A stretch of 63,847 nucleotides of DNA, the filler included, from Hausera hauseri (lineage: Eukaryota), in NCBI GenBank assembly GCA_046269625.1. It is 12 parts of 12 records of this genome, joined end to end, with 100 filler letters (N's around TTAATTAATTAA, not from the genome) between each part and the next. Parts side by side here need not be neighbours in the genome. Positions count along the whole stretch, not along the records: positions 55,545 to 59,916 come from JBJURY010611999.1; 11 more parts are not named here. One strand, written 5' to 3'. The notes beneath the pieces are model-generated. The model was not told the origin of the DNA and searched no databases. It saw only the letters and a program-made list of their open reading frames with translations. Positions 55,995-60,016 of the stretch are shown piece after piece. The translations under genes and the position numbers were made by a program. Each line of letters begins with the position of its first letter. Within the stretch, counting starts at the first letter, position 1.

Positions 55995-56220
55995 TGAAAT
56001 GACGAATAGTCTCTAAAATAAAAAATGACTCATTAAGTCAAATTTCAAAATTGAATCATTCCTTAAAATAAAAAAATGACACATCATCAAATTTCGAAAT
56101 TGAATAAATAAATAAAGTGAAAGCGAACGAATGTTATTTTAAATAGAATTTGGTAACCGAAATGACACATTTTAATTTTAAAAATAGAATTGGAATGACG
56201 CAAACAAATAATATATAAAC
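55995..56220 (+). promoter_or_regulatory. Cluster of AATGAC (AP-1/CRE-like) motifs followed by a TATA box
   Basis: TGACG at ~56000, TGACTCA 56026, TGACACA 56077 and 56163, TGACGCA 56196; TATATAAA at 56212. Confidence 0.55.
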
Positions 56221-58372
56221 CGGTCATTCCAATTCACAAGAACAACAAAACACCATACCATTCAAACTTTACTGAATATACAGGTTAAAATTTAGTCGAG
56301 AAGAACTTATACGTAAGTTTTTCATAATTCCTAATTGGTATATAGAGAATATTAGGAAGCAACAAAGTATCTGAGGAATATATTCGCGTATCGAAATTAA
56401 AAGCTAAGACAATTCCAACCGAGGTTTATACCAATAATTATTTGAGAAACTGATATATTTGCATATCAAAATTAGAACCTACGATAATCTCCTAATCGAA
56501 CAGTCCTGATCCAATAAAGAATAGATCAAACTACAATGAAGAAATGGCAGAAGGAAATGATTACGAACGAATGCAGGAGAATTCGTTAAATGATGGTGAG
56601 TTGCCAATTGATCCGATGTTTTGTGCTTGTATTCTTATTGTAGAATTATTGTTATAAAATATAATTTTAATATCATAAATTTATGCCATGGCGATGCTGA
56701 GACCCATGTTAGAGTTTGAATATATATAACGGAGGTAATAAAAATGAATATAAACATGGGACACCTGGATATACAGAAGTTGAATAATTATTCAGAGGAT
56801 ATTTATGAGCGGATCGCATGAATTAATTGGATTACGTTGAAGCAGTTGAAACGGCGACGTATGATATATCCTGCCCATCCGTGGATTCCGACAAAAAGTG
56901 AAATACGCCAAGGACAGCGAAGTCGATTGAAGGCATTCTCTTCCAAGAGTTATGAATGAACTGGAATTACCCAACTGGTTACTTTGGCAGATGGGCGTTC
57001 ATCATTATTGAGTCTGATATTCGTGAACTGATTGAGTCTGCTCTTTTGGGTTTGGTAAGTTCATGAAACCGCGAAGGGTGTTTGTCGTATTAATGGTTAG
57101 CCCCTATAATTAAAAGGTGGAAATGATGTATAAATATAATAATATTCTCATGATCATTTATTATTTAAAAAGGGGGTAGTCTCCACAACTTTCAATAGTC
57201 ACTAAGTATATGGTCAAATATGAAGTCCGTTACTTATTTAGTGGGAATTTTTAGAATATTATGTACGTATAACTCAGGTCCATTATGGAATCGATAGTGA
57301 TAAAGGTTGGCTGCTGGGTAATAGAAATTAAAATAAAAGAATTTCGTGTTGATATCTATTATGTCTATATACTGATTCAGGCTTTCTTGAAATCTCAGAT
57401 GTTTAATAATATTCATAAAGAGATAATGATGATTCTATTAAAGGAATCTGATGTATCTTACAAAACATTGGGGAAATGGTACGAAAGACAATAGATTCGA
57501 TACAAATAATAATTTAGACGAGTGATATTGATATGACTATTTATTTATGTGATTTTCTTGTAAACCGACGAATCAAATGATGGCTAAACATGGTTACTGT
57601 AATGGAACTTTTGTTGAAATATTGTTTTATAGAGTACCCCGAGACAAATTACGACAAAAGGGAATGAATATAAGATGAGCTTATAATAATAAGCATATAT
57701 AGATCTTGGCTTAAAGAAGGTTTAGTCGTTACACCTTACCTGATAATAATAACATAACGGTATGAAAATTATTTGATAATGATCGTAGCATGACATGGAC
57801 ATTCATTCAGGGTAACATAGTTTAATTAAATTCGTAGAGTACATAATAAATTGAGATATATTTTATTATTGAAGGAAATTTGATACGCTTGATGTCCTGT
57901 TAAACTATAAGGGAGGATATACTAAGTGGGTAAAGAACGAATATATATAGTAAATTATAACATGGACAAGGAAAGAATACTTGACATGACATAGAATTAG
58001 AGGAAGAGCAAGTACATAATGGTTGTCTTGCATCTGTCATTTTAGTTTTGACAACATTAAGTATATATTATGAGATGACAACAACAAGAGATATTTGCTG
58101 AAGATCGACTATATATATTATGAGATGACACAGGAGCCGGGTATAAATTACCAAACCGCCCCCGAACTCACGTTAAAAATATTGAATATGTTTATGCATT
58201 GGTAAATTGTTTAGAGATTGAAATCAGAGAAGGTTTAGGTCGATAAAACTCACATCATAAATCCAATCATAAACATATAAACGGGTGCCCCGAGTGAGGA
58301 CACCGTTAATGTGAAAAGAAGACCAATATACGAATTTTAATGAGAAAGGTTGATATTATGATTGGTATTTAG

Positions 58373-58653
58373 ATAGCAGATACGACGGACCTCAATGCGA
58401 AATTTGTATCAATGCACTAGGAAGACGATATGCTTTACTGCGTTGCACGCATATCATGTGTGTAGATTGCGCTGACCGATGGCTGATGAAAAGCCAGACA
58501 TGCCCATTTTGTAGGAGAAGAACCAGCTCTTACCAATGTGCAGGAGTGACAGTTGTAGTCCTCCCAGATTATGAAGAACAAAGAAATTTACCTGAAGATA
58601 TGACTCCACTGTATGTAGTAGGTCCAAATGGACTGGTGATCATGCCTATATAG
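58373..58653 (+). CDS. C3HC4 RING finger exon 1
   Basis: CEIC..CTHIMCVDC..W..CPFCR; begins after tttag in phase 1; TAG followed closely by AATAAA. Confidence 0.8.
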
Positions 58654-58794
58654 ATAGTAATAAAATTTTCTCTTTTATGTTTTGTTTGAAGGGAAAAAAA
58701 TAGATATAAGATATTGTAATTAGAAGAAATAAAAGAAAGTTGTTTTATAAATTCAAGAAATAATCTGACGCTGAAATAACCGCATTAAATTCAG

Positions 58795-59027
58795 GATGTA
58801 TCATAAGTAGAAAACCTCCCGAAGTCAGTAAGGAAGGAAAAAACCCATGCCCATTATGCTATCTCGTCGAAAGAATGAAATATCGGGAAGACTTGTTCGA
58901 GTGTGCATACTGTGGGGAAGAGGCCAATATAAGCGTTATTGTCATGGACTCAGACTGTTTTCTGATATGTCCTATTTGTGTTTTATCCTGGGAAGATGCA
59001 GAGGAAATTAATAAATTAATTAGATAA
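58795..59027 (+). CDS. Small Cys-rich Zn-binding exon (three CxxC pairs), absent from the ORF track
   Basis: After ttcag in phase 1: CIISRKPPEVSKEGKNPCPLC..FECAYC..CFLICPICVLSWEDAEEINKLIR*, with TAA overlapping AATAAA. Confidence 0.65.
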
Positions 59028-59083
59028 TAAAATCTGTAATGAAATACAGTAATAGTTAATAAAGTTGTTTTTATTGATTATAG

Positions 59084-59496
59084 ATAATTGCCCCATATGT
59101 CTGGAAGGAATGACGAATGAAAAAACAACACTACCATGTGGACATACATATTGTCAACTCTGCATTAATACTTGGTTAAACGAACAAAGTAACTGCCCTT
59201 GTTGTCGACGAGCCTGTACATTTTTCTGGGTGTGCCTTAAATTGGTGGCGGATAATCTAGTCGTCCTGTCATGTCGCCATGTGTTTTGTCGACCGTGTAT
59301 TTTGAAATATTTGGGTTGTAGTCAGTGTTGCCCTTACTGTTTTGAATCAGTGGACTTTTATGTCACAGAAGGAGAGATCACTTATTTGAATATTGATAAT
59401 CGCCCATCTATAGTATTGGTGATCGCCGAGGATGATGGTAGCTGGCCGGAAAATTGGAGAAACCCACAACCTTATACAATATTGGACTTTAAATAA
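59084..59496 (+). CDS. Double RING finger exon
   Basis: CPIC..PCGHTYCQLC..W..CPCCR, then a second RING (WVC)..SCRHVFCRPC..CPYC; phase-1 tag acceptor; stop overlaps AATAAA. Confidence 0.85.
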
Positions 59497-59551
59497 AATT
59501 GAATTATTAATAAAATTAATTGTGGTAAATCGTTCATTTCGATTTCTTAAG

Positions 59552-59847
59552 GTTATTTCCCCAATTTGAATTCCACACCTGTATTGTCCCACGGATTTCA
59601 AGGAAAGACAACACATTATTACTCGATTTACGATCCGAAAGGAATCTTTACGACGATAGGAAAAGCGTGTACTATCTGCCTGAATGATTATTCTATGGAT
59701 CCAGTAGAATTGGTTTCCTGCAAACACCAATTCTGCCGACGTTGTATAAAAGAATGGTTTCTTAGAGAAAACACATGTTCAGTTTGCCGCACAATTAACA
59801 AACTGTTCTTGCATGGATATAAATATTACACTATAAAGAATTTATAA
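59552..59847 (+). CDS. RING finger exon 3
   Basis: CTIC..SCKHQFCRRC..W..CSVCR; phase-1 aag acceptor; TAA overlaps AATAAA. Confidence 0.8.
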
Positions 59848-60016
59848 ATAAAAATTTTGTTTTAAGATTTCGATTTTTAGAAGTATATTGTATTTTAGCT
59901 GAAATACAGGAAATGANNNNNNNNNNNNNNNNNNNNNNNNNNNNNNNNNNNNNNNNNNNNTTAATTAATTAANNNNNNNNNNNNNNNNNNNNNNNNNNNN
60001 NNNNNNNNNNNNNNNN

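What the first reader, a model, noticed from the sequence alone, without database searches (positions are those of the whole stretch)
56212..59860. Battery of phase-1 terminal exons (RING/Zn fingers and micropeptides), each closed by stop plus AATAAA
Seen: the four Zn-binding ORFs (58373, 58795, 59084, 59552) have no in-frame ATG before their first Cys ligands. Each starts right after an AG in phase 1 and ends with a stop overlapping or adjacent to AATAAA. Short peptides at ~57255 (YYVRITQVHYGIDSDKGWLLGNRN*) and 58692 (KKIDIRYCN*) follow the same pattern. Upstream are a TATA box (56212) and a consensus GTAAGT donor (56313) whose longest open register is also phase 1 (IYRLKFSREELI, beginning ATA rather than ATG). 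Inference: either one leader exon is spliced onto alternative last exons, as in adenovirus-style transcription units, or each gene has its own micro-exon (next finding).
Basis: partly seen in the sequence, partly recalled or inferred. Interest (0 to 1): 0.8.

Follow-up and report, generated by a model that had tools for sequence, protein, structure and literature searches.

The report
One leader, many RING last exons
A repeated, virus-like stretch in a probably animal genome holds four zinc-finger reading frames that have no start codon of their own, each opened by a splice-acceptor-like site and closed by a poly(A) signal, and it likely makes a set of predicted ubiquitin ligases by splicing one short upstream start exon onto any one of them, though no RNA was available to show this.

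Summary
They are real coding exons: among related copies in a DNA run, 18 of 24 polymorphic changes in ORF1/ORF2 are synonymous (29% expected), 8 of 11 upstream of the first Met, and three 42-46% identical homologues of ORF3 also begin at an internal Met. Best model: one enhancer/promoter, a non-coding exon, this coding exon, then alternative last exons, as in cytomegalovirus IE1/IE2 but with four or more RING ends. Against: no RNA; a subset of copies has an in-frame ATG before ORF3; the leader is not linked to most copies; both micropeptides are weak. The contig starts with a truncated Polinton-type integrase tail, so a Maverick/Polinton parent is likely but unproven. This copy looks decayed.

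The parts
55547..55663 (-). Truncated tail of a Polinton/Maverick-type (rve, pre-chromodomain) integrase; 45 X1 contigs leave the window's sequence at 55663
   Evidence: 44-65% identity to the tails of rve integrases in 7 of 7 viral loci; L086 and L088 also encode a long B-family-like polymerase, named from recall; table 7
55999..56202 (+). Five ATGAC[GTA][CA]A motifs (55999, 56025, 56076, 56162, 56195); likely enhancer; likeness to AP-1/CRE sites is recalled
   Evidence: 0 of 500 shuffles give 5 in 220 nt (motif defined from the data)
56212..56219 (+). TATA box TATATAAA
56240..56312 (+). Inferred non-coding exon 1 (start position inferred from the TATA box), closed by GTAAGT donor at 56313
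   Evidence: no ATG; donor 7 of 9 consensus matches
56544..56595 (+). Proposed shared coding leader: ATG in gaaATGG context, 17 codons + 1 nt, then GTGAGT donor at 56596 (phase 1)
   Evidence: best donor on the + strand, 8 of 9; longest ATG-free gap of the contig, 341 nt, ends just before; 32 of 5000 shuffles; X1 contig 56505-56749 has one other letter, at the out-of-frame ATG 56536-38
56544..56657 (+). Read-through form of the leader if 56596 is not used: 37 codons, AATAAA at 56737
   Evidence: no Pfam hit; X1 shows gaps at 56625 and 56647
57255..57337 (+). Candidate micro last exon with AATAAA at 57332 (weak)
   Evidence: a stronger AG at 57241 is phase 0
58271..58304 (.). About 34-nt stretch shared with a very abundant repeat; unexplained
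   Evidence: depth 18,500 in that bin; fold z = -1.1
58373..58664 (+). Last exon ORF1: C3HC4 RING, stop 58651-53, AATAAA 58659
58692..58733 (+). Candidate micro last exon, stop 58721-23, AATAAA 58728 (weak)
   Evidence: 2-nt gap in the X1 contig
58795..59031 (+). Last exon ORF2: Cys-pair zinc-binding protein, stop 59025-27 overlapped by AATAAA 59026 (another at 59010)
59039..59048 (+). Rival private micro-exon for ORF3 (ATG + 7 nt, GT at 59049, 35-nt intron)
   Evidence: such candidates arise for 70 of 102 background cases
59084..59497 (+). Last exon ORF3: two RING fingers plus a conserved acidic/Trp tail, stop 59494-96 overlapped by AATAAA 59492
59552..59852 (+). Last exon ORF4: RING; frame opens exactly at the acceptor (TAA overlaps the AG); stop 59845-47, AATAAA 59847
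59853..59916 (+). Further T-rich AG sites (59866, 59880, 59898) before the contig ends; the battery may continue

Best explanation
This is likely one compact transcription unit of a repeated, probably Maverick/Polinton-type element, in which a single promoter would make a pre-mRNA whose short start exon (56544-56595) is predicted to be spliced onto any one of at least four start-less last exons, giving predicted RING ubiquitin ligases with the same 17-residue acidic N-terminus. Shown: the signals and their phases, the RING domains, the lack of own ATGs, selection on the ORF1/ORF2 frames among related copies. Inferred: transcription starts about 28 nt after the TATA box; exon 1 ends at 56312 and is non-coding (or its intron is retained in the 5' UTR); translation starts at 56544; the donor 56596 competes among acceptors 1.8-3.0 kb away, and cleavage at the AATAAA behind the chosen exon fixes the isoform (terminal-exon skipping), giving 110, 94, 154 and 115 residue products. 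Inferred from family knowledge: the products recruit E2 enzymes and remodel host proteins early in the element's activation, as small viral RING proteins do (recalled). The window's copy looks decayed.
For: All four ORFs phase 1 and the only ATG-bearing consensus donor upstream with a good start context is phase 1; in-silico joins are open to the stop. Stop-adjacent AATAAA 4 of 4 against 8 of 159. 18 of 24 differences at 50-90% share are synonymous, expected 29%, p 3e-6; 19 of all 32, p 3e-4; 8 of 11 before the first Met, p 0.003. ORF1 has no ATG or near-cognate start before its first Cys and its frame is closed 7 nt before the AG in most covering depth; ORF4's frame opens at the AG. No majority change at the four AGs covered (complete 40-row table). 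P0008, P0159, P0157 (46, 42, 44% identity, including the non-RING tail) were called from internal Mets without the first Cys pair. 341-nt ATG-free run after the TATA box; the out-of-frame ATG at 56536 is not read in 3 of 3 X1 contigs. Five-fold motif cluster before the TATA box.
Against: No RNA holder was listed, so no junction or poly(A) site is shown. Two X1 contigs (52.7 of 82.6 depth) read an in-frame ATG 10 codons before ORF3's first Cys and lose AATAAA 59058; ORF3 and ORF4 also have near-cognate codons upstream. Summed depth is 36-43 over the leader, 50-110 between the exons and 150-1200 over the exons, and no listed contig joins leader to battery: most copies of the battery do not carry this leader at 80% identity, so this contig could be a chimera or the family's leader could differ. 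AG conservation has low power (only 40 of 961 places differ). Phase agreement is 1 in 3 for one donor. The differences are not independent events, and three adjacent pairs were scored singly. The truncated table gave 10 of 31 synonymous (p 0.42). The gene calls of the homologues could be cut by contig ends or misplaced; their DNA could not be fetched. The integrase tail is broken off at 55663, and none of 7 Polinton-like viral loci holds a RING ORF.
Confidence: 0.55

Rival explanations
1. The ORFs are last exons, but the start comes from elsewhere: another leader in most copies of the family, private micro-exons, the reader's 56276-56312 exon in other copies, or a separate promoter near 58142/58276 with trans-splicing to a leader as in mod(mdg4).
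For: Depth rises at about 58270-58320 and three diverged contigs join the 58271-58304 motif to ORF1; TATAAA at 58142 and 58276 with ATGACA repeats at 58075 and 58125; ORF3 has a neat ATG 59039/GT 59049 candidate.
Against: No phase-1 micro-exon candidate for ORF1 or ORF4; 70 of 102 background cases have one; 56276 is ATA also in X1; no donor of 7 of 9 or better between 57056 and ORF1.
Confidence: 0.25
2. They are separate intronless genes, each with its own start (ATG lost in this copy, or a near-cognate codon), packed head to tail with their own poly(A) signals; the AGs are chance.
For: In-frame ATG before ORF3 in 2 contigs; near-cognate codons before ORF2, ORF3, ORF4; this copy carries private damage (1 of 8 near-fixed differences synonymous).
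Against: ORF1 has no start candidate and is closed by a stop just before the AG in most depth; ORF4's frame opens at the AG; only 25-66 nt lie between a poly(A) signal and the next acceptor, too little for promoters; homologues of ORF3 also lack an upstream start.
Confidence: 0.12
3. An operon resolved by spliced-leader trans-splicing, the leader RNA supplying the cap and the start codon.
For: Poly(A) signal followed within 25-66 nt by an acceptor resembles nematode operons (spacing; the resemblance is recalled).
Against: A leader ending in AUG (flatworm type, recalled) needs phase-0 acceptors; ORF1 and ORF2 have none. A leader without AUG would leave the ORFs without a start.
Confidence: 0.05
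4. Dead fragments of RING genes in AT-rich DNA; the signals are chance.
For: 33% GC makes AATAAA and T-rich AGs common; micropeptides fail the copy check.
Against: Strand-biased AATAAA excess, 4 of 4 stop adjacency, selection on frames and whole-length homologues.
Confidence: 0.03

Closest known systems
Human cytomegalovirus major immediate-early unit, IE1/IE2 (PMC5426786, passages read)
   Same: One promoter, a non-coding and then coding shared exons, alternative last exons each with its own poly(A) signal (terminal-exon skipping).
   Different: Two main ends against four or more here; IE1/IE2 ends are long and not RING fingers (recalled); no sequence relation tested or expected; IE splicing is shown, this is predicted.
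Drosophila mod(mdg4) and lola (PMC13490949, passages read)
   Same: Constant 5' exons joined to one of many alternative 3' exons that give different C-terminal domains.
   Different: Cellular loci with a whole BTB domain as constant part, wholly or partly trans-spliced; here the constant part is 17 residues, the unit is under 4 kb and repeated in the genome.
Adintovirus / Maverick-Polinton accessory genes such as Oncoids (PMC8502044, section 3.2 and term search)
   Same: Small paired-CxxC accessory ORFs in an integrase-bearing element; Polinton-type integrase tail on the same contig.
   Different: The main text has 0 hits for 'RING' and 'splic'; no LxCxE motif seen in these ORFs; no polymerase or capsid gene on this contig. 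The paper's supplementary gene maps were not seen and may list RING ORFs.
Adenovirus early and late units; baculovirus ie0/exon0 (both recalled; search found no paper holding all terms)
   Same: Nuclear DNA viruses that splice one leader to several downstream ORFs.
   Different: Adenovirus leaders are mostly non-coding and the ORFs keep their ATG (recalled); here the leader would supply the start codon to every ORF.

Membership tests
C3HC4 RING finger proteins | RING domain above Pfam's curated cut-off | tested here: met
   ORF1 41 bits, ORF3 65 bits (two stretches), ORF4 42 bits; ORF2 not met (14.5 against 27)
C3HC4 RING finger proteins | E2-dependent ubiquitin ligase activity | not testable with these tools
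   needs an assay
Alternative-terminal-exon unit (IE1/IE2 type) | Shared 5' exon with start codon and a donor in phase with every last exon | tested here: met
   (sequence level only)
Alternative-terminal-exon unit (IE1/IE2 type) | Own poly(A) signal behind each last exon | tested here: met
   4 of 4
Alternative-terminal-exon unit (IE1/IE2 type) | Spliced, polyadenylated isoforms observed | not testable with these tools
   no RNA holder listed
Alternative-terminal-exon unit (IE1/IE2 type) | Leader and last exons linked across copies | tested here: inconclusive
   contigs too short; leader region far lower in depth than the exons
Maverick/Polinton (adintovirus) | Retrovirus-like (rve) integrase of Polinton type | tested here: inconclusive
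   38-residue tail matches such integrases but is cut at 55663, where most contigs diverge
Maverick/Polinton (adintovirus) | Protein-primed DNA polymerase B, capsid, ATPase and protease genes in the same element | tested here: inconclusive
   none on the 4.4-kb contig; no genome held; polymerase-like fragments at 46561-51240 lie on another contig
Maverick/Polinton (adintovirus) | Terminal inverted repeats and target-site duplication | not testable with these tools
   element ends are not on the contig; no terminal repeat
Maverick/Polinton (adintovirus) | Many dispersed, diverged copies | tested here: met
   1976 X1 contigs laid, 676 at 90-95% and 477 under 90% identity (true of many mobile elements)
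Spliced-leader operon with AUG-ending leader | Phase-0 acceptor before each ORF | tested here: not met
   none for ORF1 or ORF2

The most novel reading that the evidence does not exclude
A family of virus-like mobile elements in animals carries a hidden, expandable cassette of start-less RING effector exons that all plug into one 17-codon leader, so that a new ubiquitin ligase is gained simply by inserting 'acceptor - domain - stop - AATAAA' in phase 1 downstream of the promoter; such genes are invisible to ORF-based annotation of Mavericks/Polintons, and distant relatives (42-46% identity) share the design.
Probability: 0.35. Interest if true: 0.8.

Novelty: new variant of a known kind. Interest (0 to 1): 0.62.

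Why it matters
If true, virus-like transposons run a lola/IE-type isoform battery in under 4 kb, with splicing and poly(A) choice setting which RING ligase is made. It would mean that accessory genes of Mavericks/Polintons are undercounted and mis-started by ORF callers (as the three homologues found here appear to be), give a simple route for effector gain and loss, and offer a compact natural model for terminal-exon choice among four or more ends. The prediction is sharp and cheap to test with RNA. No description of such a unit was found or by term search in six Polinton papers; subscription journals and supplements were not covered.

Tried and rejected
No genome is held for the window. No RNA holder listed; both lay calls used contigs of runs of unrecorded kind. 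The GT..AG joint 56421-56474 in one X1 contig of depth 4 lies in a locally repeated stretch with length variants and was not taken as splicing. Scans for related loci found no true relative: viral (L001 is a 13-residue chance hit), metagenome (none; one search gave 80 loci of generic RINGs, none matching the non-RING parts), prokaryote genomes, phages. ORF4 has no word-index homologue; ORF1 and ORF2 were not searched in the large protein sets (caps spent on ORF3 and ORF4). Rfam: one match at E 0.42, far under its cut-off. The structure model of ORF3 was poor (pLDDT 58) and was not searched. The Atlas, queried with P0008, gave generic RING clusters, one of them Preplasmiviricota at rank 6, a lead only. 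The 58271-58304 stretch does not fold better than shuffles. Earlier scan notes held nothing on this genome or sequence. Rejected: 56276 as start, private micro-exons as the general rule, AUG-ending spliced leader, the two micropeptides as established parts.
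Full report
Setting. The window is a string of short contigs joined by N-linkers; the finding lies on one stand-alone contig, 55545-59916, 33% GC, with no second copy in the window and no genome held. The host is a eukaryote, probably an animal (inference from the retroelements and gene fragments seen, named from recall).

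The observation. The four ORFs begin after AG at 58372, 58794, 59083 and 59551, each in phase 1. Their first in-frame ATGs come after 3, 3, 2 and 2 cysteines. ORF1, ORF3 (two fingers) and ORF4 pass Pfam's RING cut-offs; ORF2 does not. AATAAA lies at +8, +1, -2 and +2 from the stops. The contig has 18 AATAAA on the + strand and 4 on the - strand; 500 dinucleotide shuffles give 7.6 +/- 2.7 and none reaches 18. A stop-adjacent AATAAA is found for 46 of 330 stop triplets of the contig and 8 of 159 ORFs elsewhere in the window (interval chosen after seeing the data). ORF1 also has two phase-2 AGs, ORF3 two weak phase-0 AGs. The micropeptides are present but weak: a better AG at 57241 is phase 0, and the one X1 contig listed at 58693 has a 2-nt gap.

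Are the start-less frames real coding sequence? Two public runs hold the stretch, neither on record as RNA. In X1, 1976 contigs were laid, 676 at 90-95% and 477 under 90% identity, so the stretch belongs to a repeated, diverged family. A second lay on 58150-59110 (X1 only, differences at 50% share or more) gave a complete table of 40 places; 32 fall in ORF1 and ORF2. Of the 24 at 50-90% share, 18 are synonymous against 29% expected (p 3e-6); of the 8 at 90% or more, 1 is. The result holds for cut-offs from 0.8 to none (19 of 32, p 3e-4), and upstream of the first Met 8 of 11 are synonymous (p 0.003). The truncated table, mostly near-fixed differences, gave 10 of 31 (p 0.42). I read this as purifying selection in the family, with neutral private damage in the window's copy, which is broken at a zinc-ligand position in ORF2 and in ORF3's second finger. 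The differences share ancestry and are not independent events. ORF3 and ORF4 were not covered by the complete table.

Do other copies have their own ATGs? For ORF1 the opposite: 9 contigs (71 of 114 depth) read an in-frame stop 7 nt before the acceptor, and there is no near-cognate start either. ORF4's frame opens at its AG, which a TAA overlaps. ORF2's first Cys is the first whole codon after the AG. For ORF3, 2 contigs (52.7 of 82.6) read an in-frame ATG at 59059-61: a result against the model, or a subfamily that has gained a private start. No majority change hits the four AGs covered, but with 40 of 961 places differing this has little power. A search of 1.84 billion representatives found one whole-length homologue of ORF3, P0008 (46%, E 2.5e-31); a profile added P0157 and its cluster mate P0159. 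All three share the non-RING tail, come from ENA contigs of 756, 2399 and 6672 bp, and were called from internal Mets without the first Cys pair. That fits an upstream intron in distant relatives, but their DNA could not be fetched.

Which leader? Between the TATA box and 56536 there is no ATG at all: the longest ATG-free gap of the contig (341 nt; 32 of 5000 shuffles). The ATG at 56536 is out of frame and is not read in 3 of 3 X1 contigs. The next, 56544, has A at -3 and G at +4 and is followed by 17 codons, one base and GTGAGT at 56596, the best donor on the + strand (8 of 9 consensus matches). That is phase 1; joined in silico, all four products are open (110, 94, 154, 115 residues). Five ATGAC[GTA][CA]A motifs lie in the 200 nt before the TATA box (0 of 500 shuffles); their likeness to AP-1/CRE sites is recalled. 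Private micro-exons fail as a rule: none for ORF1 or ORF4, and 70 of 102 background cases have a candidate. The main weakness is linkage: summed depth is 36-43 over the leader, 50-110 between the exons and up to about 1200 over them (depth is no copy number), so most copies either have a leader diverged beyond 80% or another one.

Parent element. The contig opens with 38 codons on the - strand that match the pre-chromodomain tail of rve integrases in 7 of 7 viral loci found with a loosened motif (44-65% identity), 5 of 5 of which were scanned and hit rve (one just under the curated cut-off); L086 and L088 show Polinton-like gene sets (genes named from recall). But 45 X1 contigs leave the window's sequence at 55663, so the unit sits at a break in the integrase, and none of the 7 loci has a RING ORF. 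I put a Maverick/Polinton parent at about 0.55, another nuclear DNA virus or mobile element at 0.35, a host gene cluster at 0.1.

Mechanism. Shown: signals, phases, domains, selection. Inferred: one inducible promoter; non-coding exon 1; start exon 56544-56595; competition among acceptors, with cleavage at the poly(A) signal behind the chosen exon; products are small RING ligases with a common acidic N-terminus that act on host proteins.

Comparison. It works like the cytomegalovirus IE1/IE2 unit (shared exons, alternative last exons, own poly(A) signals; PMC5426786, passages) and like mod(mdg4)/lola (constant 5' part, many variable 3' exons; PMC13490949, passages), but is a member of neither. 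The adintovirus paper describes paired-CxxC Oncoids and has no main-text mention of RING or splicing (PMC8502044, term search and section 3.2; supplements not seen). Term searches in 10.1101/2024.03.25.586562, PMC12220804, 10.1101/2023.10.06.561300, 10.1101/2023.08.22.554363, 10.64898/2026.10.13.758929 and PMC11071308 (passages only) and library searches (listings only) found no such unit in a Polinton; PMC7498042 (passages) was of no use. Two unchecked earlier notes of this scan report predicted spliced leaders in Maverick replication genes of other genomes; they make splicing in these elements plausible but are no evidence here.

Verdict. New variant of a known kind; interest 0.62, limited by the lack of RNA and of a proven parent.

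Noticed in passing
window, whole: Short contigs are joined by 44 N + a 12-nt all-frame stop linker + 44 N, so neighbouring contigs need not be neighbours in the genome.
   Followed up: yes
window 55545-55663: The integrase tail has extreme summed depth in X1 (about 515,000), far above the rest; a 20-nt tandem duplication (55657-55696) spans the point where most contigs diverge.
   Followed up: partly
window 58271-58304: Short stretch shared with a very abundant repeat, joined to ORF1 in three diverged contigs; possibly the end of another mobile element.
   Followed up: partly
window 57633-57667 and 58215-58246: Two more T-rich AGs whose phase-1 frames give 10- and 9-codon ends, without AATAAA at the stop; may be further or decayed micro-exons, or chance.
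   Followed up: partly
window 56504-56518: AG at 56503 followed in phase 1 by a 4-codon end whose stop overlaps AATAAA 56513, upstream of the proposed start exon; could be an early poly(A) site that switches the unit off (sequence).
   Followed up: no
window 46561-51240 (-): Decayed polymerase-like fragments with an endonuclease VII-like piece (E 0.0025), Maverick-like by recall; separate contig.
   Followed up: partly
window 39542-46504 (-): Long non-LTR retrotransposon ORFs with reverse transcriptase and Ulp1-like protease motifs (NeSL-like; recalled from the translation).
   Followed up: no
window 2832-4619 and 18848-20258 (-): Two Ty3/Gypsy-like elements followed by envelope-like ORFs (recalled from the translation).
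   Followed up: no
window 9696-10079 (-), 32148-32633 (-), 33359-33661 (-): Fragments resembling eIF2B-epsilon, a MATH domain and cysteinyl-tRNA synthetase (recalled).
   Followed up: no
window 60017-63847 and 5521-7400: Long degenerate TTCG and GAA-type simple repeats.
   Followed up: no
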